In this document: piece after piece, positions 3,090 through 37,815 of the stretch
How positions within the stretch are numbered: the first letter of the stretch is position 1
How the letters are laid out: every line of letters begins with the position of its first letter
NCBI RefSeq assembly: GCF_044647545.1
Contig: NZ_CP172818.1
Length of the DNA: 64,000 nt
Reading direction: 5' to 3' (one strand)
Origin: Escherichia coli
GTDB taxonomy: Bacteria; Pseudomonadota; Gammaproteobacteria; Enterobacterales; Enterobacteriaceae
Made by a program: the position numbers and the translations under genes
Notes under the pieces: generated by a model
Database searches by the model: none
What the model saw: the letters and a program-made list of their open reading frames with translations, nothing else
What the model was told of the DNA's origin: nothing

Positions 3090-4154
3090 ATGACCGAACT
3101 TAAAAACGATCGTTATCTGCGGGCGCTGCTGCGCCAGCCCGTTGATGTCACTCCAGTATGGATGATGCGCCAGGCGGGTCGCTATCTACCGGAATATAAA
3201 GCCACGCGCGCCCAGGCGGGCGATTTTATGTCGCTGTGCAAAAATGCCGAGCTGGCGTGCGAAGTGACTTTGCAACCGCTGCGTCGCTATCCGCTGGATG
3301 CGGCGATCCTCTTTTCCGATATCCTCACCGTGCCAGACGCGATGGGTTTAGGGCTCTATTTTGAAGCCGGAGAAGGTCCGCGTTTTACCTCGCCAGTCAC
3401 CTGCAAAGCCGACGTCGATAAACTGCCAATTCCGGACCCGGAAGATGAGCTGGGTTACGTGATGAACGCGGTGCGTACCATTCGTCGCGAACTGAAAGGC
3501 GAAGTGCCGCTGATTGGTTTTTCCGGCAGCCCGTGGACGCTGGCGACCTACATGGTGGAAGGCGGCAGCAGCAAAGCGTTCACCGTGATCAAAAAAATGA
3601 TGTATGCCGATCCACAGGCGCTGCACGCGCTACTCGATAAACTGGCGAAAAGCGTCACTTTGTATCTGAATGCGCAGATTAAAGCCGGTGCTCAGGCAGT
3701 GATGATTTTCGACACCTGGGGCGGCGTGCTTACCGGGCGCGATTATCAACAGTTCTCGCTCTATTACATGCATAAAATTGTTGATGGTTTACTGCGTGAA
3801 AACGACGGTCGCCGCGTGCCAGTCACGCTGTTTACCAAAGGTGGCGGACAGTGGCTGGAAGCGATGGCAGAAACCGGTTGCGATGCGCTGGGCCTCGACT
3901 GGACAACGGACATCGCCGATGCGCGCCGCCGCGTCGGCAATAAAGTCGCGTTGCAGGGCAATATGGATCCGTCGATGCTGTATGCGCCGCCTGCCCGCAT
4001 TGAAGAAGAAGTGGCGTCTATACTTGCCGGTTTCGGTCACGGCGAAGGTCATGTCTTTAACCTTGGTCACGGCATTCATCAGGATGTGCCGCCAGAACAT
4101 GCTGGCGTGTTTGTGGAGGCAGTGCATCGCCTGTCTGCGCCTTATCATCTGTAA
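3090..4154 (+). CDS. hemE: Uroporphyrinogen decarboxylase
   Basis: 354-aa [39 protein letters not shown]... Confidence 0.95.
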
Positions 4155-4163
4155 GGAGTGGTT

Positions 4164-4835
4164 ATGGATCTCGCGTCATTACGCGCTCAACAAATCGAAC
4201 TGGCTTCTTCTGTGATCCGCGAGGATCGACTCGATAAAGATCCACCGGATCTGATCGCCGGAGCCGATGTCGGATTTGAGCAGGGCGGAGAAGTGACGCG
4301 AGCGGCGATGGTGCTGCTGAAATACCCCTCGCTTGAGCTGGTGGAGTATAAAGTGGCCCGCATCGCCACCACCATGCCTTACATTCCAGGTTTTCTCTCC
4401 TTCCGCGAATATCCTGCGCTGCTGGCAGCGTGGGAGATGCTGTCACAAAAGCCGGATTTAGTGTTTGTCGATGGTCACGGGATCTCGCATCCTCGCCGTC
4501 TTGGTGTCGCCAGCCATTTTGGCTTATTGGTGGATGTGCCAACGATAGGCGTGGCGAAAAAACGGCTCTGCGGTAAATTCGAACCGCTCTCCAGCGAACC
4601 GGGCGCGCTGGCCCCACTGATGGATAAAGGCGAGCAGCTGGCCTGGGTCTGGCGCAGCAAAGCGCGCTGTAACCCATTGTTTATCGCTACCGGCCATCGG
4701 GTCAGCGTGGACAGCGCGCTGGCGTGGGTACAACGCTGCATGAAAGGCTATCGTCTGCCGGAGCCAACGCGCTGGGCGGACGCGGTGGCCTCGGAACGTC
4801 CGGCGTTCGTGCGCTATACAGCAAATCAGCCCTAA
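4164..4835 (+). CDS. nfi: Endonuclease V
   Basis: [29 protein letters not shown]...; ATG at 4164 is preceded by AGGAG. The track's GTG at 4158 is probably not the start. Confidence 0.9.
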
Positions 4836-4877
4836 TTCAGGTAAACTGCGGATAATTTCCGTATTTGAGAACTCAAC

Positions 4878-5468
4878 ATGTTACAAAACCCAATTCATCT
4901 GCGTCTGGAGCGCCTGGAAAGCTGGCAGCACGTCACTTTCATGGCTTGCTTATGCGAACGCATGTACCCCAATTACGCCATGTTCTGCCAGCAAACCGGT
5001 TTTGGTGATGGGCAGATTTACCGCCGCATTCTCGATCTCATCTGGGAAACGCTGACCGTCAAAGACGCAAAAGTAAATTTCGACAGCCAACTGGAGAAAT
5101 TTGAAGAAGCGATTCCTTCAGCCGACGATTTCGATCTGTACGGCGTTTATCCGGCAATCGATGCCTGCGTGGCGTTAAGTGAACTGGTCCATTCGCGTTT
5201 GAGTGGTGAAACGCTCGAACACGCGGTGGAAGTGAGTAAGACCTCCATCACGACCGTTGCGATGCTGGAAATGACTCAGGCTGGTCGCGAAATGAGCGAT
5301 GAAGAGCTCAAAGAAAACCCAGCTGTAGAGCAAGAATGGGACATTCAGTGGGAAATATTCCGACTTTTAGCTGAGTGCGAAGAACGCGATATCGAGCTGA
5401 TAAAAGGCCTTAGGGCAGACCTGCGTGAGGCGGGTGAGAGCAATATTGGTATAATTTTTCAGCAATAA
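4878..5468 (+). CDS. yjaG: DUF416-family protein YjaG
   Basis: 196-aa ORF; synteny between nfi and hupA. Confidence 0.85.
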   Translation: MLQNPIHLRLERLESWQHVTFMACLCERMYPNYAMFCQQTGFGDGQIYRRILDLIWETLTVKDAKVNFDSQLEKFEEAIPSADDFDLYGVYPAIDACVALSELVHSRLSGETLEHAVEVSKTSITTVAMLEMTQAGREMSDEELKENPAVEQEWDIQWEIFRLLAECEERDIELIKGLRADLREAGESNIGIIFQQ

Positions 5469-5654
5469 GACCAGAAAACGTGATTTAACGCCTGATTTGT
5501 CGTACCTGGAGTCTTCCCTTTCGCCCCCCGTCTGGTCTACATTTGGGGGGCGAAAAAAAGTGGCTATCGGTGCGTGTATGCAGGAGAGTGCTATTCTGGC
5601 ATTTCCGTCGCACTCGATGCTTAGCAAGCGATAAACACATTGTAAGGATAACTT

Positions 5655-5927
5655 ATGAACAAGACTCAACTGATTGATGTAATTGCAGAGAAAGCAGAAC
5701 TGTCCAAAACCCAGGCTAAAGCTGCTCTGGAGTCCACTCTGGCTGCAATTACTGAGTCTCTGAAAGAAGGCGATGCTGTACAACTGGTTGGTTTCGGTAC
5801 CTTCAAAGTGAACCACCGCGCTGAGCGTACTGGCCGCAACCCGCAGACCGGTAAAGAAATCAAAATTGCCGCAGCTAACGTACCGGCATTTGTTTCTGGC
5901 AAGGCACTGAAAGACGCAGTTAAGTAA
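5655..5927 (+). CDS. hupA: DNA-binding protein HU-alpha
   Basis: 90-aa [93 protein letters not shown]. Confidence 0.97.
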
Positions 5928-5939
5928 GATTGCGTGGCA

Positions 5940-6635
5940 GTGAACAGTTTTAACGAAGGGGTGGTTTCACCCCTTTTGTCTTTCTGGCGTCGATCATTGA
6001 TGCTGGCAGGCGCTCTGTTTCTCACTGCCTGTAGTCACAACTCTTCACTTCCTCCCTTTACCGCCAGTGGATTTGCTGAAGACCAGGGCGCGGTACGCAT
6101 CTGGCGAAAAGACAGCGGCGATAATGTGCATCTGCTTGCCGTGTTTAGCCCGTGGCGCAGTGGCGATACCACCACGCGAGAGTATCGCTGGCAGGGCGAT
6201 AACCTCACGCTCATCAATATCAATGTTTACAGCAAACCGCCGGTGAATATTCGCGCGCGTTTTGACGATCGCGGCGATCTGAGCTTTATGCAACGTGAAT
6301 CCGATGGGGAAAAGCAGCAGCTTTCTAACGACCAAATCGATTTATACCGTTATCGTGCTGATCAGATCCGCCAGATTAGCGATGCCTTACGTCAGGGGAG
6401 AGTCGTGCTGCGCCAGGGGCGCTGGCATGCGATGGAACAGACCGTGACCACCTGCGAAGGGCAAACCATTAAACCTGATTTAGATTCGCAGGCGATAGCG
6501 CATATCGAGCGCCGCCAGAGCCGCTCTTCTGTTGATGTCAGCGTGGCATGGCTGGAAGCGCCCGAAGGTTCGCAATTACTGTTGGTGGCAAACTCTGATT
6601 TCTGTCGCTGGCAACCCAACGAGAAAACGTTCTGA
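5940..6635 (+). CDS. yjaH: Putative lipoprotein YjaH (DUF1481 family)
   Basis: Open frame from GTG 5934/5940. The likely functional start is ATG 6000, which gives a lipoprotein signal peptide MLAGALFLTAC and lies downstream of the hupA terminator. Confidence 0.75.
   Translation: MNSFNEGVVSPLLSFWRRSLMLAGALFLTACSHNSSLPPFTASGFAEDQGAVRIWRKDSGDNVHLLAVFSPWRSGDTTTREYRWQGDNLTLININVYSKPPVNIRARFDDRGDLSFMQRESDGEKQQLSNDQIDLYRYRADQIRQISDALRQGRVVLRQGRWHAMEQTVTTCEGQTIKPDLDSQAIAHIERRQSRSSVDVSVAWLEAPEGSQLLLVANSDFCRWQPNEKTF
5955..5980 (+). terminator. Rho-independent terminator after hupA
   Basis: GGGGTGG-TTT-CACCCC hairpin followed by TTTTGTCTTTC. Confidence 0.6.
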
Positions 6636-6636
6636 T

Positions 6637-7062
6637 TTACCAGTGGCCCATACCCATATGACCGCCACCACCGCAGCCGCCGTAGCCCATGCCCATTCCG
6701 GCTCCGCGCGGAATACCCGCTTCAGCCATCGCAATATCTCGTTTCACCCGTAACTCATCTAACGACTGACGCAAATTCTCCATCTCTTTGGCGACCGCGT
6801 TAATTTTGCTGCTATCCGGTGGGTTCGCGGCTAACAGGGCATTGTATTCATAACGCTTCGTCACCAGTTGCTGTTGCAGTGCGCTGCTTTGAGCGTAAAA
6901 GTCATTATGGATTTTCTGCCACGCTGTCTGTTGTTCGCTGGTCAAAGGCGCGGCATTTTGCTGCCACATACCATGTCCGCCGTGAGCAAATGCCGATGTC
7001 GATCCCATCGCCATTGCTGAAAGCGCCATCATTACCAGGGCAATTTTCGTGTTCCGTTTCAT
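6637..7062 (-). CDS. zraP: Zinc-resistance-associated periplasmic protein ZraP
   Basis: 141-aa ORF MKRNTKIALVMMALSAMAMGSTSAFA..., with GGAGG before the ATG at 7062. Gly/Met/His-rich C-terminus. Confidence 0.9.
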   Translation of the reverse strand: MKRNTKIALVMMALSAMAMGSTSAFAHGGHGMWQQNAAPLTSEQQTAWQKIHNDFYAQSSALQQQLVTKRYEYNALLAANPPDSSKINAVAKEMENLRQSLDELRVKRDIAMAEAGIPRGAGMGMGYGGCGGGGHMGMGHW

Positions 7063-7097
7063 GGTTAATCCTCCAGTGGTTGTCTTACTTCGGGTAT

Positions 7098-7113
7098 TGC
7101 ATCTTCCGTGCCA
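7098..7113 (-). promoter_or_regulatory. Sigma-54 promoter of zraP
   Basis: Reverse complement reads TGGCAC-GGAAG-ATGCA, a near-consensus match to TGGCAC-N5-TTGCA, about 35 bp upstream of the zraP start. Confidence 0.7.
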
Positions 7114-7253
7114 ACGGCGAAACGCTGATATGACGGGTAATCTGGCATGATAAACGAGTAAAAATGACTCGCCTGCTGCGGGTAGCGAGTCATTTTTACT
7201 CATTGAAACTTAAGCCTTTGTGTTACAGCGCAGGGTAAGCGCTGATAAAAGAT

Positions 7254-7269
7254 GGCATGATTTCTGCCG
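7254..7269 (+). promoter_or_regulatory. Sigma-54 promoter of zraSR
   Basis: TGGCAT-GATTT-CTGCC about 30 bp upstream of the zraS start; divergent from the zraP promoter. Confidence 0.55.
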
Positions 7270-7299
7270 TCAGAAAGGGATGAGCAGGCAAAGAAGAAG

Positions 7300-8676
7300 A
7301 TGCGTTTTATGCAACGTTCTAAAGATTCCTTAGCTAAATGGTTAAGCGCGATCCTCCCCGTGGTCATTGTTGGGCTGGTGGGGCTGTTTGCGGTGACAGT
7401 GATTCGCGATTATGGGCGCGAGACTGCCGCCGCCAGACAAACGCTGCTGGAAAAAGGCAGTGTACTTATTCGCGCTCTTGAATCCGGCTCGCGCGTCGGT
7501 ATGGGGATGCGCATGCATCATGCGCAGCAGCAGGCCTTACTGGAAGAAATGGCCGGGCAGCCTGGAGTACGTTGGTTTGCGGTCACGGATGAACAAGGAA
7601 CAATCGTGATGCATAGCAACTCCGGCATGGTGGGAAAACAGCTTTATTCCCCGCAGGAAATGCAGCAGTTACATCCGGGAGATGAAGAAGCGTGGCGGCG
7701 GATCGATAGCGCAGACGGCGAGCCTGTTCTGGAAATTTATCGCCAGTTTCAACCGATGTTTGCTGCTGGAATGCACCGGATGCGCCATATGCAGCAATAT
7801 GCCGCGACACCACAAGCAATTTTCATTGCTTTCGACGCCAGTAACATTGTGAGTGCCGAAGATCGTGAGCAGAGAAATACCCTGATTATCCTCTTCGCCC
7901 TGGCGACGGTCTTGCTGGCAAGCGTGTTGTCATTCTTCTGGTATCGTCGCTATCTGCGCTCGCGCCAGTTGTTGCAGGATGAAATGAAGCGCAAAGAGAA
8001 GCTGGTGGCGCTGGGGCATCTTGCGGCAGGTGTTGCCCACGAAATCCGTAACCCACTTTCCTCGATTAAAGGACTGGCGAAATACTTTGCCGAACGCGCG
8101 CCAGCAGGGGGAGAAGCGCATCAACTGGCGCAGGTGATGGCGAAAGAAGCCGACCGTTTAAACCGCGTGGTAAGCGAGTTGCTGGAACTGGTTAAGCCAA
8201 CGCATCTGGCTTTGCAGGCGGTGGATCTCAACACGCTGATTAACCACTCATTACAGCTGGTAAGCCAGGATGCAAACAGCCGGGAGATCCAGTTACGCTT
8301 TACCGCCAACGACACATTACCGGAAATTCAGGCCGATCCGGACAGGCTGACTCAGGTCCTGTTGAATCTCTATCTCAATGCCATTCAGGCTATTGGTCAG
8401 CATGGCGTGATTAGCGTTGTGGCAAATGAAAGCGGAGCGGGCGTGAAAATCAGCGTTACCGACAGCGGTAAGGGAATTGCGGCAGATCAGCTTGAAGCCA
8501 TCTTCACCCCGTACTTCACCACCAAAGCCGAAGGTACCGGACTGGGGCTGGCGGTCGTGCATAATATTGTTGAACAACACGGTGGTACAATTCAGGTCGC
8601 AAGCCAGGAGGGAAAAGGCGCAACGTTCACCCTTTGGCTTCCGGTCAATATTACGCGTAAGGACCCACAAGGATGA
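7300..8676 (+). CDS. zraS: Sensor histidine kinase ZraS
   Basis: 458-aa ORF with N-terminal transmembrane segment, H-box (HEIRNPLSSIKG) and ATPase G-boxes. Confidence 0.9.
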   Translation: MRFMQRSKDSLAKWLSAILPVVIVGLVGLFAVTVIRDYGRETAAARQTLLEKGSVLIRALESGSRVGMGMRMHHAQQQALLEEMAGQPGVRWFAVTDEQGTIVMHSNSGMVGKQLYSPQEMQQLHPGDEEAWRRIDSADGEPVLEIYRQFQPMFAAGMHRMRHMQQYAATPQAIFIAFDASNIVSAEDREQRNTLIILFALATVLLASVLSFFWYRRYLRSRQLLQDEMKRKEKLVALGHLAAGVAHEIRNPLSSIKGLAKYFAERAPAGGEAHQLAQVMAKEADRLNRVVSELLELVKPTHLALQAVDLNTLINHSLQLVSQDANSREIQLRFTANDTLPEIQADPDRLTQVLLNLYLNAIQAIGQHGVISVVANESGAGVKISVTDSGKGIAADQLEAIFTPYFTTKAEGTGLGLAVVHNIVEQHGGTIQVASQEGKGATFTLWLPVNITRKDPQG

Positions 8677-13501: not shown

Positions 13502-15043
<1,542 letters not shown>

Positions 15044-18515: not shown

Positions 18516-18602
18516 CAAATTTAGCAGAAGCCCTGCGCTGGCGCACGCTCCAGCTTCACCGCGCGATAGCACTCGATAGGCGGTCGCACTTACCAGGCCA
18601 GC

Positions 18603-23423: not shown

Positions 23424-25968
<2,545 letters not shown>

Positions 25969-30070: not shown

Positions 30071-31702
30071 GTGTTAACGCTGCTTCACCTGCTTTCTGCC
30101 GTCGCCCTGCTGGTCTGGGGGACTCATATTGTTCGAACCGGCGTAATGCGCGTCTTCGGCGCGCGTCTGCGTACTGTTCTTAGCCGAAGCGTCGAAAAGA
30201 AGCCGCTCGCCTTTTGCGCGGGGATAGGCGTTACCGCACTGGTGCAGAGCAGTAATGCCACCACCATGCTGGTGACCTCGTTTGTCGCTCAGGATCTGGT
30301 AGCCCTCGCACCGGCTCTGGTGATTGTGCTGGGTGCAGATGTCGGGACGGCGCTAATGGCGCGTATTCTCACCTTCGACTTATCCTGGCTGTCACCGTTA
30401 CTTATTTTTATCGGCGTGATTTTTTTCCTCGGACGCAAACAGTCACGCGCCGGGCAACTGGGCCGCGTCGGTATTGGTCTTGGGCTGATTTTGCTGGCGC
30501 TGGAGTTGATTGTGCAGGCCGTAACGCCGATCACCCAGGCAAACGGCGTTCAGGTGATCTTTGCCTCGCTGACCGGCGATATTCTGCTGGATGCGCTGAT
30601 TGGCGCGATGTTCGCCATTATCAGCTACTCCAGCCTTGCTGCTGTACTGCTGACCGCGACTCTGACCGCCGCAGGCATTATCTCCTTCCCCGTGGCGCTC
30701 TGTCTGGTGATTGGTGCTAACCTCGGTTCCGGTCTGCTGGCGATGCTCAACAACAGTGCCGCCAATGCCGCAGCCCGCCGTGTCGCGCTGGGTAGCCTGC
30801 TGTTTAAGCTGGTGGGTAGCCTGATTATCCTGCCGTTTGTTCATTTGCTGGCAGAGACAATGGGGAAGTTGCCATTGCCAAAAGCGGAACTGGTGATCTA
30901 TTTCCACGTCTTCTACAACCTTGTACGCTGCCTGGTCATGTTGCCATTCGTTGACCCGATGGCACGGTTTTGCAAAACGATTATTCGCGATGAACCGGAA
31001 CTGGATACCCAGCTACGGCCTAAACATCTGGATGTCAGCGCGCTGGATACGCCCACGCTTGCTCTGGCGAACGCTGCCCGCGAAACCCTGCGCATTGGCG
31101 ACGCCATGGAACAGATGATGGAAGGGTTGAATAAAGTGATGCACGGCGAGCCACGGCAGGAGAAAGAGCTGCGTAAGCTGGCTGATGATATCAACGTTCT
31201 CTATACCGCCATTAAGCTGTATCTGGCGCGGATGCCAAAAGAAGAGCTGGCGGAGGAAGAGTCGCGCCGCTGGGCGGAGATCATCGAAATGTCGCTCAAC
31301 CTTGAACAGGCCTCCGATATCGTCGAGCGCATGGGGAGCGAAATTGCCGATAAATCGCTGGCAGCACGGCGGGCATTTTCGCTTGATGGCTTGAAGGAAC
31401 TGGATGCGCTCTATGAGCAATTGCTCAGTAATTTAAAACTGGCAATGTCGGTTTTCTTCTCTGGCGATGTTACCAGCGCCCGTCGTTTGCGCCGCAGCAA
31501 GCATCGCTTTCGCATTCTTAATCGCCGTTATTCCCATGCTCACGTCGATCGCCTGCATCAGCAAAACGTGCAAAGCATTGAAACCAGTTCGCTACATTTA
31601 GGCTTACTGGGAGATATGCAGCGTCTGAACTCGCTGTTTTGTTCGGTGGCTTACAGTGTGCTGGAACAGCCGGATGAAGACGAAGGACGGGACGAGTATT
31701 AA
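30071..31702 (+). CDS. yjbB: Na+/phosphate cotransporter-family membrane protein YjbB
   Basis: 543-aa ORF, hydrophobic N-terminal half with a PhoU-like C-terminal domain; synteny. Confidence 0.88.
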   Translation: MLTLLHLLSAVALLVWGTHIVRTGVMRVFGARLRTVLSRSVEKKPLAFCAGIGVTALVQSSNATTMLVTSFVAQDLVALAPALVIVLGADVGTALMARILTFDLSWLSPLLIFIGVIFFLGRKQSRAGQLGRVGIGLGLILLALELIVQAVTPITQANGVQVIFASLTGDILLDALIGAMFAIISYSSLAAVLLTATLTAAGIISFPVALCLVIGANLGSGLLAMLNNSAANAAARRVALGSLLFKLVGSLIILPFVHLLAETMGKLPLPKAELVIYFHVFYNLVRCLVMLPFVDPMARFCKTIIRDEPELDTQLRPKHLDVSALDTPTLALANAARETLRIGDAMEQMMEGLNKVMHGEPRQEKELRKLADDINVLYTAIKLYLARMPKEELAEEESRRWAEIIEMSLNLEQASDIVERMGSEIADKSLAARRAFSLDGLKELDALYEQLLSNLKLAMSVFFSGDVTSARRLRRSKHRFRILNRRYSHAHVDRLHQQNVQSIETSSLHLGLLGDMQRLNSLFCSVAYSVLEQPDEDEGRDEY

Positions 31703-31711
31703 TACCGTGAC

Positions 31712-31785
31712 CCTGTAGGCCTGATAAGACGCGTAAAGCGTCGCATCAGGCACGATGAACAAGATGCCGGATCATGCATCCGGCA
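31712..31785. repeat. REP elements between yjbB and pepE
   Basis: CTGTAGGCCTGATAAGACGCGTAAAGCGTCGCATCAGGCA and GCCGGATCATGCATCCGGC palindromes. Confidence 0.75.
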
Positions 31786-31791
31786 ATTCAT

Positions 31792-32481
31792 TTAAAAACG
31801 GTGACCCGCTTCCAGCGGCACCGCTTCTTCACCAGCCTTAAACACATAAGTGGTGTTCGGGCCACCCAGCGTAGCGTGACCTTTACTCACCGTGATCCAG
31901 TTACCTTCCGGTAGACCAATAATTGTGAGTTCTGGCGCGACGACCAGCAGTTCGCGAATACGCTGCTCACGCGTTTCACCTTTATGGCCTTCCGGCAGCG
32001 CGTTGGTGAAGTGCGGGTTGATTTGCAACGGGAACAGATTCAGCGCATCGAAACCTTGCGGATCGACAATCGGCATATCGTTGGTGGTACGAATGGTTGG
32101 GCAAGCAAGGTTAGCGCCTGCGCTCCAGCCAATATACAGCGCGCCACGTTTCACCACGTCAGTAATTGGTGGCAGCAGCCCGCGCTCGCGGCACTGTTTC
32201 AGCAACTGGAAAGTATTACCGCCGCCGACAATCACGATCTCAGCATTTTCAATCGCGGCAACGGGATCGACAACGCTATGAATACCGGTGACAGAAACAC
32301 CCAGCGGAGCGAGAACCGCAGCCGTTTTCGCTGTGTAATCATCCCAGGTCTGCGTTACGCCAGCGAAAGGAATAAATACCGCTGAACGGCGACCCTGCAA
32401 CTGTTCAGCAATCAGCGGCAGCGCGTGTTCCAGCCAGGCTTTACCCGGCAGCGTCGAGTTACTCAATAAAAGCAGTTCCAT
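31792..32481 (-). CDS. pepE: Dipeptidase E (alpha-aspartyl dipeptidase)
   Basis: 229-aa [45 protein letters not shown]... Confidence 0.95.
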
Positions 32482-32609
32482 TACTTCTCCGGTTAGTAAG
32501 AAATCACGGGAGCCATGCTACCACTGTGATTTTAACCGCTTACTGACATGGCTCACGATGTTGCGCATTGCTTCTGGAAAGGATTTCCAGACGCAGGTCA
32601 CGAATTTCC

Positions 32610-35600
32610 ATAAAACCAGACTGTTTTTTCATAAACACTCATTTACGATGACCCCCATCTCCCGAAAATCAGACAAACCACCATTACCGATAATCCCTAA
32701 ACAAACACGAAAATCACCATACCGTTAATTTTTTTTTACAACGTACCATCACACTCAAACCACCCACAATCCACAAACTCGAAATGTCTTACTCATATAT
32801 CACCACCCAGCGTTTGTAAACCATAACCAGTTGACGATTCCATTTTCACCATACCCCATTACAAACACCCAAACGAGCCCTCGTCATTTTTCACAAATTA
32901 CCCCATATCGCTACGATATTCACCCCTTTACGAAACCCATTCACCCATACCATTTCATTTCAACGTACTGCATTGAAAATAAAAAAACACACCATATTCC
33001 AAATCCAAATCGCCACCCGTAACCCACGTTCCCCAACCATGACCCAACACCTCCAACGGTCCCATCAGCGACTTTATCCGTTAATTACCGTCATCAATTT
33101 CCCGCGTTCTCGCGCCTCTTCCATCGCATACGCCGATGACCCCACATACCCGTGTATTAAAACACCAGTTCCCTACCCCAACCTGATCCTCTTTTAATTA
33201 AATCGTTTGATCGATCATTCGTACAAAAACCCACCCGTGAATACTTCAAATTAAAGATGCCTTTCATACGCAAAACATGCTCACCAACCTCTTAATTTTT
33301 CTCTGTTCCATGATCTCCGTTAATCATCAATTCAACGTGATATTTCTGATGTTTCACTTTACCCACTGTGATTTAACTGATGTAACACCATGATCACGCA
33401 CGCCACCGAACCCACAGACTAACAGTACCACCTCAGAAACCGAGAAAAAGAAAGCATCAAATATTTCACCCCATCATCGAACACCATCGTAACCGACCAC
33501 CACGATAAAACCCCACAATCTCATCCAGGGTCACAAATCGAATCGCTCACATATTTTTATCATACCGCTACGAACAGCGAACAATCATCCGAACCAACGC
33601 CAATCTCACCCAACGCGAACATGCAGAATACAATCGAAACGTGTTCTTCCGCTGCTTTATCCGCCGCGTGCTGAAACTACGTGATTACCAAACACCGTCA
33701 CACCTCCTCCCACCAACAACGCGATCGATTCCTCGATGCTTTCTACCAACGATAACCAAATCGGAGATTATGCCGATCAGAATCCAAATCCCCCGCCGAG
33801 TTCATCCACCAACTATCAATTCCACGTACCACCACATAATTCGTTTTTAAATCACCAAATTAAACCAATCACCTACACAATTAACGACGATGATCTGAAA
33901 TTCATCCACACTCCCATTCCGCAATACAAAAAAAAAATATACAATAATTTTATACTTATTTCCATGATTTTCACCTTTTAATTCTCATCCCTCCTTTAAA
34001 CATATGTACACACGCTATTATTTAATTTGATTAATGTTCGTTTATTTTTCGATAATATTGATTAGATCTACCTACGAGCGTAAACCATATACCCAAGATT
34101 ATTTAATCATGAAACGTTAATAACTCATCTAATGAAATCTTTTTAACTGTTTCTTACCAAGTCACCATACCCCAATATTCATACCTATTTTTACCCCTCG
34201 AACCATTCTAACATCTTTCGATGAAAAGATAAAAAAGTTTCGTCCTATATTCGGGTTTGATAATCCGCGACGGCTTTTTCATATTACCACGTTAACCTTC
34301 ATTCCCGTCGCACCTACGCAATAATGTCCGGCGAATTCATCGTTATAAATTCGTCATTGCAGATAATAATGCGTTCGTTACCACTTTAACCAACGGTATA
34401 CCTCCGTGATCACGTCATCAATCCACGTAATGTTCATCAAAATCCTCCTCCGCTGTTCCACCTGTCTCCAACGACGCAGATTTCTTTCGATTTCTCCGTT
34501 CACAGAAATCCATCAATATTCATGCTTCCTGTTATCAACCATTCACCCACGCAGAGAAAGCCGCTGATTACCCCAACGAGATTCGCATCCAACATCGCTC
34601 CCATTCCACGGGCTCCGCACTGTAAACCACCAATCACCATCATCTTGATTTAATCTTACGTACTTTTCCACTTTCTACGATGTCTCCCGTTCTCGCCGCA
34701 CAAATTCAACCCTCGACCTCATCCGTATATCTAACTGATTCCACATCCAACTAATTTCCATCGCAAAAAATGCATTACCATAAAACCTGATCGTTTTTCC
34801 GCCCGCAATGTTATTTACTCCGTATAACCCGTTCAACACAGATAACAAACAAAATCACCATTCTCTAATCTTCCCCCCCAAAAATCGTTTTTTATACCTT
34901 CACGCACTGCTCGACGTGATATTCCGTCCACCCACCTTCTTCATATTCCCGTCCATCCTGTTTTTTCCAGAATCCCCCGCGATACCGACCACACGATACC
35001 GTCTTACCCATTCTTTCGACCAGACGATGAAGCTATTACGCACTTTATCGCGTACACTCTCCTTCTACCTTCCACCGACTTTCTAGAAACATTCACAATC
35101 ACCATGTGTTGTTCTACGTACCGTCCCCACCCTCGACATCAGAAAAAGTTTTTTATATACCATTTTTTCGAATCACTTCGTTATTCATACTCCCCACCTT
35201 TCTCATCACCACAACCGAAATTACCCGTTATTACCAACTCGATCACAAAATGATAATTTCTCTATATATTTACCTCTTCGCTTAGATTTCCCAAAATGAT
35301 ACCTTTACGATTCATATTTCCACCCACTAATATCACATCTTACATCCTTTCTAATAATTCACCACAACCAACCAATCCGACCATACAATAATATTTTACC
35401 AAATTTAAATTTCATAAACAATATTTTAGATAATAGACCCGTAATTTTTATATAAACATCGAAATTTTTATTCATAAATTCACTTTTATAAAAATTAATA
35501 TATTTTCCACCATGCAAACAATCTTATTTTTCTTCACCACAAGCCAAATGGAATATCTTTTTAATTTATTCATTCGATAAGATGTTTTTTCTCATATTCG

Positions 35601-36305
35601 TTTCAACCACCGTAATATCAAAAAACCGAGCAAATACGCCAGCAACCCGGGCATTCATCTCACTCTCTTCACCACCATAAAACCATCCATACCCTCCGAA
35701 TCCTACCAATTCCCACCACGACATCCAATTACCCATACAAATTTTTAAACCTAACTCATATCCCAACGAATTAATTTATCCACAACCGGAAAATCCCGAA
35801 TCGATTCCCCTTTCAACTCCCCTGTATTAATTTTTACATAACGCTTTCGATTTACCACGTCCGCCAATAATACCAGATTAACTCCCGATTCCCCCCCGCA
35901 ATTTTCAACATCCTCACCCCCCAGGAAAAACCAACAAACCCATCCACAACGACCACATCCCCTTAACCCCACACCCATTATCTCTTCATCCTCATCATTT
36001 CCCGACACACACAACTCTTTCAGCCAAACTTTTCTTCATCCCCACCAAGATTTTCTTATCATATACGATACAATTCCTCGACCCCTTTTAACAACTACGG
36101 TAAAACCACCCCGATCCCCTCATACCCAAAATCAACCACAATCAAACAATCTCACTTTTTCCATCCCTCTTTCCACATGCAAAACCTTTCCACCACGAAA
36201 ACACAGACTTTCAAACGATTTTTCACTCAAGAAAACGCTTTCTCCACATTTTTTCCAACACACACACACATTCAATATTGATTATCTTATTGCCACAAAA
36301 TTATC
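32610..36305. other. Anomalous ~3.7 kb G-depleted, ORF-free segment of unknown origin between pepE and rluF
   Basis: Hand counts on the top strand give G about 8–10% inside the segment against about 22% in the flanks, with A and C elevated. The longest ORF in any frame is 92 codons. No recognisable gene, RNA, repeat array or mobility function. Boundaries are placed by where the G content shifts. Confidence 0.8.
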
Positions 36306-36422
36306 TATTTCCGGATACTTCTGTGATAAAAGCGGGCAGATCACATTAATTTCACGTTGCCTCATAACCCTTTTTTATCAACCCAAGAGGTACGGTATAT
36401 TCCGCGTTTTACAGGAGAATTT

Positions 36423-37358
36423 ATGCTGCCCGACTCATCAGTCCGTTTAAATAAATACATCAGCGAAAGCGGAATTTGCTCACGCCGCGAAGCGGATCGC
36501 TATATCGAGCAAGGCAATGTGTTCCTTAATGGCAAGCGAGCCACCATTGGCGATCAGGTGAAACCCGGCGACGTTGTGAAAGTAAACGGTCAGTTGATTG
36601 AGCCTCGGGAAGCCGAAGATTTGGTACTTATCGCCCTGAACAAGCCCGTCGGTATTGTCAGCACCACCGAAGATGGCGAGCGCGATAACATTGTCGATTT
36701 CGTTAACCACAGCAAACGCGTGTTCCCGATTGGCCGCCTGGATAAAGATTCCCAGGGGCTGATTTTCCTCACCAATCACGGCGATCTGGTGAATAAGATC
36801 CTCCGTGCGGGTAACGATCATGAGAAAGAGTATCTGGTGACGGTTGATAAACCGATTACCGATGAATTTATTCGTGGTATGGGGGCGGGAGTACCGATCC
36901 TCGGGACGGTAACTAAAAAGTGCAAAGTCAAAAAAGAAGCACCGTTTGTCTTCCGCATTACCCTGGTGCAGGGGCTGAACCGTCAGATTCGTCGCATGTG
37001 CGAGCACTTTGGTTACGAAGTGAAAAAGCTGGAACGTACGCGCATTATGAACGTCAGCTTAAGCGGCATTCCGCTGGGTGAGTGGCGCGATTTAACCGAC
37101 GATGAGTTAATCGATCTCTTTAAGCTCATTGAAAATTCCTCTTCCGAGGCAAAACCTAAAGCGAAGGCCAAACCGAAAACGGTAGGCATCAAACGTCCAG
37201 TCGTTAAGATGGAAAAAACGGTGGAAAAAGGCGGTCGCCCGGCGTCCAACGGTAAGCGTTTTACCTCGCCGGGGCGTAAAAAGAAGGGGGATCAGCGCCT
37301 GCCGCGCGTCGACGTATTTGCTGACCAGCTAAATGACGCCTCAGGATCCGGTTTATAA
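36423..37358 (+). CDS. rluF: 23S rRNA pseudouridine synthase RluF
   Basis: [49 protein letters not shown]..., with S4 domain, pseudouridine synthase core and Lys/Ala-rich C-terminal tail. Confidence 0.9.
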
Positions 37359-37564: not shown

Positions 37565-37815
37565 GATGGTGCCCTCAGTGAGCCAGAGAGTTCAGTGTAC
37601 GGGAATTCGTTTGCGAGCAGAACTGATAATATTCATTTTGCCTTCTCTTAACTATTTATCTCTTTCGATAATTAGCGATAAATACAGATAAAAATTTAAC
37701 GCAAATTATTATCCGATAAAGACGCTGGTTAACAGAGTACAGGCTCGTTTATTGATGAGCATAGTGACAAGAAAATCAATACGGCCCGAAATATAGCTTC
37801 CAGGCCATACAGTAT

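What the first reader, a model, noticed from the sequence alone, without database searches (positions are those of the whole stretch)
33900..35600. Internal mosaic of the anomalous segment: C/A-rich blocks alternate with very AT-rich cores and simple runs
Seen in sequence: composition inside the segment is not uniform. Some lines are about 45% C (around 33001–33060), whereas 33920–34200 and 35380–35590 are about 70–80% A+T with almost no G. There are homopolymer and simple runs: T9 at about 32726, A10 at about 33921, and (CA)6 at 36258–36271. This patchiness argues against a single uniform random generator and against simple one-step chemical conversion of native E. coli sequence. It is compatible with a concatenation of heterogeneous low-complexity DNA.
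Basis: seen in the sequence. Interest (0 to 1): 0.35.

Follow-up and report, generated by a model that had tools for sequence, protein, structure and literature searches.

The report
Base-dropped copy of sorbose operon
The patchy, G-poor stretch is the ordinary E. coli sorbose-utilisation operon from which most G's (and some T's and C's) have been dropped one base at a time, and it looks like a fault in how this sequence record was built, not a biological feature.

Summary
Composition inside the G-poor segment (window 32578-36385) is uneven (AT variance z=8.3 against shuffles), and the named blocks and runs exist within 3-7 bases of the stated positions.

The interpretation mostly fails. The segment is not joined-up low-complexity DNA. 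It is a colinear copy of the sor (L-sorbose PTS) operon, which sits between pepE and rluF in about half of E. coli.
- 68% of + strand G's are deleted, against 11% of T, 9% of C and 0.7% of A.
- There are only 30 substitutions and 13 insertions.
- The 2 kb nearest pepE are missing.

The mosaic is inherited. AT content per 100 nt tracks the native operon (r=0.92). The two AT-rich cores are native gene junctions. T9, A10 and (AC)6 form when deleted bases let their neighbours join.

The dropout ignores genes, follows one strand and depends on context. Flanks match ST648-like strains with 0-1 mismatches.

Every other departure from those strains sits where K-12 differs structurally, and these junctions blend both alleles. 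The window therefore looks like a genome rebuilt on a K-12-like template, with the island re-inserted in damaged form.

No public assembly holds the segment. Verdict: not a real feature, low interest.

The parts
31792..32481 (-). pepE (dipeptidase E), intact left flank
   Evidence: 229-aa ORF. Window 30900-32577 is 100% identical to E. coli FDAARGOS_497 over 1678 nt.
32482..32577 (.). Native spacer after pepE. It ends at ...GCTTCTGG, the point where sor-positive and sor-negative alleles diverge.
   Evidence: Identical to L001 up to position 1678. K-12 and strain 2013C-4282 share the same sequence up to GCTTCTGG and then diverge.
32577..32578 (.). Junction where 2006 nt of the native island are absent (L001 1679-3684: the shikimate 5-dehydrogenase gene and most of sorE). 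The left junction GCTTCTGG|AAAG is the same as in the sor-negative K-12 allele.
   Evidence: The missing 2 kb are nowhere else in the window, even after stripping G from both sequences.
32578..32630 (-). Remnant of the 5' end of sorE. It is a fine-scale blend of the sor-positive sequence and the K-12-type spacer (AAAGGATTT...CACGAATTTCC).
   Evidence: Three-way alignment A1. No complete E. coli genome carries this junction.
32667..33309 (-). Base-dropped PTS IID gene (sorM-like): 643 of 825 nt kept. It contains the 45%-C line 33001-33060.
   Evidence: Coordinate map, alignment, counts.
33318..33963 (-). Base-dropped PTS IIC gene (sorA-like): 646 of 798 nt kept.
33920..34200 (.). AT-rich core 1. 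It covers the 5' end of the IIC gene, the IIC/IIB spacer and the 3' part of the IIB gene. These are natively AT-rich (native AT 0.58-0.64), and loss of G raises this to 72%.
   Evidence: A10 at 33928-33937 arises from native AGGAAAAAAGAAATA by loss of three G's.
34020..34435 (-). Base-dropped PTS IIB gene (sorB-like): 416 of 495 nt kept. It holds a stretch where 11 consecutive G's are retained (L001 5842-5899).
34435..34779 (-). Base-dropped PTS IIA gene (sorF-like): 345 of 408 nt kept.
34786..35413 (-). Base-dropped SDR oxidoreductase gene (sorD-like): 628 of 807 nt kept. C is also dropped at a raised rate in this stretch.
35380..35590 (.). AT-rich core 2. It covers the 5' end of the SDR gene, the spacer and the 3' end of the SorC-family regulator gene (native AT 0.55-0.65). 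Loss of G and C raises this to 80%.
35466..36162 (-). Base-dropped SorC-family regulator gene: 697 of 948 nt kept. T is dropped as well as G towards the right end, leaving C/A-rich text.
36162..36385 (.). Degraded spacer between the regulator gene and rluF. It includes (AC)6 at 36258-36269. The right edge (about 36355-36385) is a base-by-base blend of the sor-positive and K-12-type alleles (CCTCATAACCCTTTTTTATCAACCCAAGAGG).
   Evidence: No complete genome carries this edge (best 89.8%).
36423..37358 (+). rluF, right flank. It has 0 mismatches to FDAARGOS_497 except a 4-nt loss at 37289-37290 that removes its stop codon, so the ORF is 311 aa instead of 290.
   Evidence: The extended product is not on record anywhere.

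Best explanation
The segment is the native sor (L-sorbose PTS) operon of an ST648-like E. coli. It lies in its normal place between pepE and rluF, in its normal order and orientation.

Single bases have been dropped in a way that follows the + strand and depends on base and context:
- G: 68% dropped.
- T: 11% dropped.
- C: 9% dropped.
- A: 0.7% dropped.
There are almost no substitutions or insertions. The 2 kb nearest pepE are missing altogether.

The internal mosaic is the native operon's own profile. GC-rich gene bodies alternate with AT-rich gene junctions, and removal of G exaggerates the contrast. Where T or C is also dropped, C/A-rich or very AT-rich text remains. The homopolymer and dinucleotide runs form when deleted bases let their neighbours join.

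The dropout is not biological. It is a defect in how this sequence record was built. The window behaves like an ST648-like genome rebuilt on a K-12-like (sor-negative) template:
- Single-base differences and small indels were transferred correctly.
- Large structural differences left blended, slightly wrong junctions.
- The large island absent from the template was re-inserted from weak, apparently one-strand evidence, and low-confidence bases were left out.

Shown here: the homology, the deletion spectrum, the inherited mosaic, and the coincidence of all lesions with K-12 structural breakpoints. Inferred: the template-based rebuilding. Speculative: the step that drops G, for example a consensus or polishing model that emits gaps for poorly supported bases.
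For: 1. Identity of the segment.
- Megablast places it on the sor operon, which 2721 of 5426 complete E. coli genomes carry between pepE and rluF.
- A 2025 paper (PMC12817954) describes the L-sorbose PTS as induced by L-sorbose in ST131 and ST648 strains and not induced in a commensal ST10 strain.

2. Deletion spectrum.
- G lost 790 of 1163, T 140 of 1240, C 117 of 1311, A 9 of 1203.
- 30 substitutions and 13 insertions.
- With G stripped from both sequences, there is one 3630-column match at 91.3%.

3. Inherited mosaic.
- AT per 100 nt in the window against the matched native sequence gives r=0.92; for C, r=0.87-0.91.
- The AT-rich cores map to native gene junctions.

4. The process ignores genes and depends on context.
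- Retention of isolated G's is 12% after A, 30% after T and 54% after C.
- AGT 0 of 49 retained; CGA 61 of 79 retained.
- C and T are also lost 2-3 times more often after A, and there is no codon-phase effect.
- The outcome depends on the surrounding 5-7 bases.
- Retained G's are clustered (runs z=-3.1).

5. Time scale.
- The flanks show 0 mismatches over 1678 nt, 1 over 14 kb and 0 over 26 kb to FDAARGOS_497.
- There was therefore no time for about 1050 natural deletions.

6. Template signature.
- All eight non-rRNA departures from that lineage lie at 8 of the 9 places where K-12 differs structurally: 18522-98, 23366, 25118-34, 32578-36385, 37289-90, 41339, 45914-17, 46452/57.
- The junctions carry K-12-specific residues.
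- The 2-kb gap uses the K-12 junction GCTTCTGG|AAAG.

7. Uniqueness. The segment and its junctions are absent from:
- 5426 complete RefSeq E. coli genomes;
- the GTDB representative genomes;
- JGI metagenomes;
- exact-product look-ups.
Against: - No raw reads or assembly metadata are available, so the pipeline is inferred and not observed.
- The strong strand asymmetry (G much more than C) is hard to get from a consensus of reads from both strands. It needs single-strand or single-read support, or a non-sequencing process.
- Known raw-read error profiles have far more insertions and substitutions than are seen here.
- It is unexplained why one template-absent block (2 kb) was not rebuilt at all while the neighbouring 4.8 kb was rebuilt in damaged form.
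- Deliberate in-silico editing or a generative model could give a similar picture.
Confidence: 0.8

Rival explanations
1. Deliberate or algorithmic in-silico alteration. The island and several junctions were rewritten by a script or a generative sequence model, for example sampling with G penalised so that it skips G and carries on along the remembered sequence. No sequencing data were involved. This is also non-biological.
For: - The spectrum is almost pure deletion, with A essentially untouched.
- The bias is directional along the + strand.
- Small local scrambles occur, for example CTCACC>TTTATC.
- The two alleles are blended at both edges.
- Stop codons of aceK, rluF and psiE are hit.
- There is no public match.
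Against: - A simple per-base deletion script would not give dependence on 5-7 bases of context.
- Such a script would not place K-12-specific residues at exactly the K-12 structural breakpoints.
- A generative model could not reproduce more than 55 kb of lineage-specific sequence with 0-1 mismatches.
Confidence: 0.14
2. A real, natural state of the chromosome. The sor island has been inactivated by an unknown, localised, strand-specific hypermutation or repair process that removes single G's.
For: - The change is confined to an accessory island and is strand-specific.
- The context dependence could in principle reflect an enzyme's preference.
Against: - No known process deletes individual G's at 68% per site while leaving A untouched and causing almost no substitutions.
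- Flanks identical to relatives leave no evolutionary time.
- The same record has blended, stop-destroying lesions at seven other K-12 breakpoints.
- The segment is absent from 5426 complete genomes.
Confidence: 0.02
3. Foreign or low-complexity DNA: a horizontally acquired AT-rich island, or a concatenation of simple sequences unrelated to the native locus.
For: AT-rich cores, simple runs and unusual composition.
Against: - Colinear homology to the native operon along the whole length.
- No repeat families.
- No mobility genes, no Pfam hits in any ORF of the segment, and no Rfam family.
- The composition profile is explained by the native operon.
Confidence: 0.01
4. Base conversion: deaminase or bisulfite-like G>A / C>T hypermutation of native sequence.
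For: G depletion on one strand is what C deamination of the opposite strand would give.
Against: - Only 4 G>A changes against 790 G deletions.
- The segment is 24% shorter than its native counterpart (3808 nt in the window for 4886 native nt), whereas conversion preserves length.
- A is not enriched beyond what loss of G predicts.
Confidence: 0.01

Closest known systems
sor (L-sorbose PTS) operon of E. coli, as in strain FDAARGOS_497 (NZ_CP033850.1, 1808010-1814528)
   Same: Same chromosomal site (pepE-rluF), and the same gene order and orientation from the start of sorE to the SorC-family regulator gene. Retained bases are about 99% identical.
   Different: About 1050 single-base or short deletions destroy every reading frame. 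The longest ORF is 92 aa, on the wrong strand. The shikimate dehydrogenase gene and most of sorE are missing. Both edges are blended with the sor-negative allele.
Reference-templated consensus or polishing artefacts (reference bias at structural variants). This comparison rests on general knowledge of such pipelines, not on a test against a specific tool.
   Same: Errors are confined to places where the sample and a template differ structurally. Junctions mix template and sample residues. Point differences are transferred correctly.
   Different: I know of no described pipeline that gives a strand-specific, G-selective dropout over 3.7 kb. The step that produced it is not identified.
Natural pseudogene decay with deletional bias in bacteria (general knowledge)
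   Same: Loss of coding capacity in an accessory operon through deletions.
   Different: Natural decay gives substitutions as well as indels, has no base-specific deletions, and is accompanied by divergence of the flanks. Here there are 30 substitutions against 1056 deleted bases, and the flanks are identical.
Bisulfite or deaminase conversion of DNA
   Same: One-strand depletion of a single base.
   Different: Conversion replaces the base and keeps the length. Here the base is removed.

Membership tests
E. coli sor (L-sorbose PTS) operon | Located between pepE and rluF | tested here: met
   pepE at 31792-32481 and rluF from 36423. The annotated operon lies at the same site in FDAARGOS_497.
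E. coli sor (L-sorbose PTS) operon | Colinear nucleotide homology to the regulator, SDR, IIA, IIB, IIC, IID and sorE genes | tested here: met
   Continuous alignment from L001 3685 to 8570. Only the first ~55 nt of sorE are present, and the adjacent shikimate dehydrogenase gene is absent.
E. coli sor (L-sorbose PTS) operon | Intact reading frames able to encode the PTS components and enzymes | tested here: not met
   No ORF longer than 92 aa. No Pfam hits in the five longest ORFs of the segment (92, 87, 81, 74 and 66 aa). 668 gap openings in one 4341-column BLAST alignment.
Natural decayed pseudogene or island | A mixed spectrum of substitutions and indels, not base-specific, with comparable divergence in the flanks | tested here: not met
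   1056 deleted bases, 75% of them G, against 30 substitutions. Flanks show 0-1 mismatches over 14-26 kb.
Deaminase or bisulfite-type hypermutation | G>A (or C>T) transitions with length preserved | tested here: not met
   4 G>A changes against 790 G deletions. Gene remnants keep 74-85% of native length.
Horizontally acquired AT-rich island | No homologue at the native site, plus mobility genes, a tRNA or direct-repeat borders | tested here: not met
   The whole length is homologous to the resident operon. No repeats at the borders. No protein families.
Low-complexity or tandem-repeat DNA | Repeated units, or concatenated simple sequence | tested here: not met
   Only 16-25-nt two-copy chance matches. 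The runs T9, A10 and (AC)6 each derive from unique native sequence by deletion.
Reference-templated reconstruction artefact | Lesions coincide with structural differences between the sample lineage and a template | tested here: met
   All 8 non-rRNA lesions fall at 8 of the 9 K-12 breakpoints.
Reference-templated reconstruction artefact | Junctions carry residues from both the template and the sample | tested here: met
Reference-templated reconstruction artefact | Read-level evidence (coverage, strand, pipeline) showing how the consensus was made | not testable with these tools
   No reads or metadata are available. The segment is absent from every public collection searched.

The most novel reading that the evidence does not exclude
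The G-poor sequence is physically present in a living E. coli. It would have been produced by an undescribed, locally targeted, strand-specific process that excises single guanines (with some T and C) from an accessory island, while the rest of the chromosome stays untouched.
Probability: 0.01. Interest if true: 0.95.

Novelty: not a real feature. Interest (0 to 1): 0.06.

Why it matters
Biologically it does not matter: a common accessory operon is hidden under a data defect.

Practically it matters in three ways.
- This record should not be used for gene content, pseudogene or composition analyses at this locus, nor at seven other junctions where aceK, rluF and psiE lose their stop codons.
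- A G-poor, AT-patchy block could easily be mistaken for foreign DNA, an H-NS target or hypermutation.
- The signature found here is a usable diagnostic for template-built or corrupted genome records. It has three parts: near-pure single-base deletions with one base spared, lesions only at structural differences to a common reference, and blended junctions.

Tried and rejected
- **Base conversion (G>A).** Rejected on the substitution and deletion counts.
- **Random per-base deletion.** Rejected because retention depends strongly on neighbours out to +/-3 nt and is clustered.
- **Selection or codon-linked process.** There is no codon-phase effect once the 5' neighbour is controlled for.
- **Internal repeats or concatenation.** None found.
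- **Translocation of the missing 2 kb.** Not found anywhere in the window, with or without G-stripping.
- **Alternative natural alleles for the left junction, the right edge, the aceK, rluF and 5S-yjaB lesions.** No complete E. coli genome has any of them.
- **Public provenance.**
  - Exact 43-nt and 42-nt patterns are absent from the GTDB representatives and from JGI metagenomes.
  - Exact-product look-ups for the extended RluF, the extended AceK and the longest ORF of the segment found nothing.
  - One look-up failed because I gave the wrong frame; it was repeated.
- **RNA families and protein families in the segment.** None.
- **Identifying a sequencing platform from the error spectrum.** No platform I know gives about 0.3% insertions, 0.6% substitutions and 68% G-specific deletions on one strand. 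This stays unresolved.

Full report
**1. The observation**

The window has one strongly G-depleted stretch. It lies between pepE (31792-32481, minus strand) and rluF (from 36423, plus strand).

- GC skew in 300-nt windows averages -0.54 inside the stretch and +0.04 (sd 0.09) outside it.
  - 33001-33060 is 45% C.
  - 33920-34200 is 71.9% A+T with 7.1% G.
  - 35380-35590 is 79.6% A+T with 5.2% G.
- The runs are real but slightly offset: T9 at 32729-32737, A10 at 33928-33937, (AC)6 at 36258-36269.
- The unevenness is far beyond chance: AT variance among 100-nt bins has z=8.3, and C variance z=4.9, against shuffles of the segment.

**2. What the segment is**

Megablast against 5426 complete E. coli genomes places the segment on the sor (L-sorbose PTS) operon. 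2721 of those genomes carry that operon between pepE and rluF. The annotation in strain FDAARGOS_497 is shown. A 2025 study (PMC12817954) reports the L-sorbose PTS as induced by L-sorbose in ST131 and ST648 strains and not in a commensal ST10 strain. K-12 has only a 211-nt spacer at this site.

Pairwise alignment shows that the window is not a diverged copy. It is a copy with bases removed. Over native positions 3685-8600 of locus L001:

| Native base | Deleted | Total | Fraction |
|---|---|---|---|
| G | 790 | 1163 | 68% |
| T | 140 | 1240 | 11% |
| C | 117 | 1311 | 9% |
| A | 9 | 1203 | 0.7% |

- There are only 30 substitutions and 13 insertions.
- If G is removed from both sequences, the native operon aligns to the window in a single 3630-column match at 91.3%.
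- A further 2006 nt (the shikimate dehydrogenase gene and most of sorE) are missing at 32577/32578 and are nowhere else in the window.
- Each gene from IID to the SorC-family regulator is present in order at 74-85% of its native length.
- No reading frame survives. The longest ORF is 92 aa, on the non-coding strand.
- The five longest ORFs of the segment hit no Pfam family, and there is no Rfam family.

**3. Why the inside looks like a mosaic**

The mosaic is inherited from the native operon.

- AT content per 100 nt correlates with that of the matching native stretch at r=0.92. For C, r=0.87-0.91. The native operon is itself almost as uneven: variance 0.0050 against 0.0068.
- AT-rich core 1 (33920-34200) is the 5' end of the IIC gene, the IIC/IIB spacer and the 3' part of the IIB gene.
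- AT-rich core 2 (35380-35590) is the 5' end of the SDR gene, its spacer and the 3' end of the regulator gene.
- Both cores are natively 55-65% AT. Loss of G (and, in core 2, of C) takes them to 72-80%.
- C-rich lines are GC-rich gene bodies without their G.
- The C/A-rich right end is where T is also dropped: 33 of 60 T's in one 200-nt bin.
- T9, A10 and (AC)6 form when deleted bases let their neighbours join.
- There are no repeat families.

**4. Nature of the dropout**

- It depends on context. Isolated G's are kept 12% of the time after A, 30% after T and 54% after C. AGT is kept 0 of 49 times, AGC 4 of 88, CGA 61 of 79.
- C and T are also lost two to three times more often after A.
- The outcome is more concordant for identical 5-7-mers than trinucleotide context predicts (z=2.7-5.7).
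- It is not deterministic, and it is patchy. Runs z=-3.1, with streaks of 9 and 11 retained G's.
- There is no codon-phase effect, and intergenic DNA is treated like coding DNA.

The process therefore reads along the + strand and takes no account of genes.

**5. Why this is not biology**

- The flanks match FDAARGOS_497-type (ST648-like) genomes almost perfectly: 0 mismatches in 1678 nt, 1 in 14 kb and 0 in 26 kb. About 1050 deletions cannot have built up in that time.
- No known process removes single G's at this rate while sparing A and making no substitutions.
- Neither the segment nor its junctions occur elsewhere:
  - not in 5426 complete genomes;
  - not in the GTDB representative genomes;
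  - not in JGI metagenomes;
  - not in exact-product look-ups.

**6. The template signature**

I listed every difference between the window and its near-identical relatives. I compared that list with the places where K-12 MG1655 differs structurally from the lineage. Outside the rRNA operon, all eight differences sit at eight of the nine K-12 breakpoints:

| Window position | What K-12 has there | Effect in the window |
|---|---|---|
| 18522-18598 | yjaA | Rewritten 5S-yjaB spacer |
| 23366 | REP element | 2-nt difference |
| 25118-25134 | arpA | aceK stop lost, ORF 588 aa |
| 32578-36385 | no sor island | Base-dropped sor operon |
| 37289-37290 | 132-nt REP element | rluF stop lost |
| 41339 | REP element after pgi | One T missing |
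| 45914-45917 | different yjbT/psiE spacer | Terminator T-run shortened |
| 46452 and 46457 | xylE | The T of the psiE stop codon lost |

The junctions carry K-12-specific residues mixed base by base with the sample's own:

- GGGG|GATcAGCGCC at rluF/yjbD.
- GATTTTTGCGGT at 45914.
- GGTAT at the end of aceK.
- AAAGGATTT..CGAATT at the left sor edge and TCAT..TTTTTTATCAACCC at the right sor edge.

The 2-kb gap uses the K-12 junction GCTTCTGG|AAAG. Recombination does not produce mosaics that switch every few bases. Alignment and consensus steps do.

The most economical reading is that an ST648-like genome was rebuilt on a K-12-like template. Small differences were transferred correctly, large ones left scars, and the template-absent sor island was re-inserted from weak evidence with poorly supported bases omitted.

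**7. What remains unexplained**

- The strand asymmetry (G much more than C) and the near absence of insertions and substitutions do not match any raw-read error profile I know. They would require single-strand or single-read support passed through a gap-prone consensus step. Alternatively, the process was purely computational.
- I cannot tell a pipeline artefact from deliberate in-silico editing without provenance. Both are non-biological.
- The natural-hypermutation reading is kept at about 1-2%.

**8. Verdict**

The segment is not concatenated low-complexity DNA; it is a colinear, base-dropped native operon.
- This is not a real feature, and interest is low except as a data-quality warning.

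Noticed in passing
window 25118-25134: About 23 nt are missing at the convergent aceK/iclR junction relative to FDAARGOS_497. The aceK stop codon is lost, and the ORF runs to 25190 (588 aa instead of 574), overlapping iclR. The junction holds a K-12-like GGTAT. No complete E. coli genome has this version, and the product is not on record.
   Followed up: partly
window 37289-37290: Four bases are lost at the rluF/yjbD junction (native GGGGCGTTAATCAGC becomes GGGGGATCAGC). This removes the rluF stop codon (311 aa instead of 290). The sequence equals K-12's flanks of its 132-nt REP insert joined together, plus one T>C change.
   Followed up: partly
window 46452 and 46457: One C and then the T of the psiE TAA stop codon are missing (GAAGCGGGAGTAAAAAAAGG becomes GAAGGGGAGAAAAAAAGG). 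This is exactly where K-12 carries xylE and this lineage does not.
   Followed up: partly
window 45914-45917 and 41339: A terminator T-run after yjbT is shortened and followed by K-12-like GCGGT. One T is missing just after the pgi stop codon. Both sites are K-12 structural breakpoints.
   Followed up: partly
window 18522-18598: The spacer between 5S rRNA and yjaB lacks the rrn terminator hairpin present in FDAARGOS_497. It contains about 17 nt found in neither FDAARGOS_497 nor K-12. No complete genome has this version. K-12 has yjaA here.
   Followed up: partly
window 37716-37815: The yjbD-lysC spacer is an empty site. In the two relatives whose coordinates I compared, FDAARGOS_497 and IMT16316, an island of roughly 20-35 kb sits here; in FDAARGOS_497 it is annotated as phage-tail and resistance genes. 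This may be a real strain difference, or a template-absent insertion that was not rebuilt.
   Followed up: no
L005 12233-12300 (K-12 pepE-rluF spacer) compared with L001 3685-3750: The sor-negative spacer of K-12 resembles the first ~60 nt of sorE (AAAG..TTT..GCAGGT.ACG). This suggests that sor-negative E. coli arose from a sor-positive ancestor by deletions and still carry a small scar.
   Followed up: no
window 14167, 15805, 16728, 16818 compared with L003: In the rRNA operon the window has one more G than FDAARGOS_497 in four G-runs. At 14167 the window's six G's match the E. coli 16S sequence as I recall it, so these may be homopolymer errors in the FDAARGOS_497 record rather than in the window. 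This was not checked against another genome.
   Followed up: no
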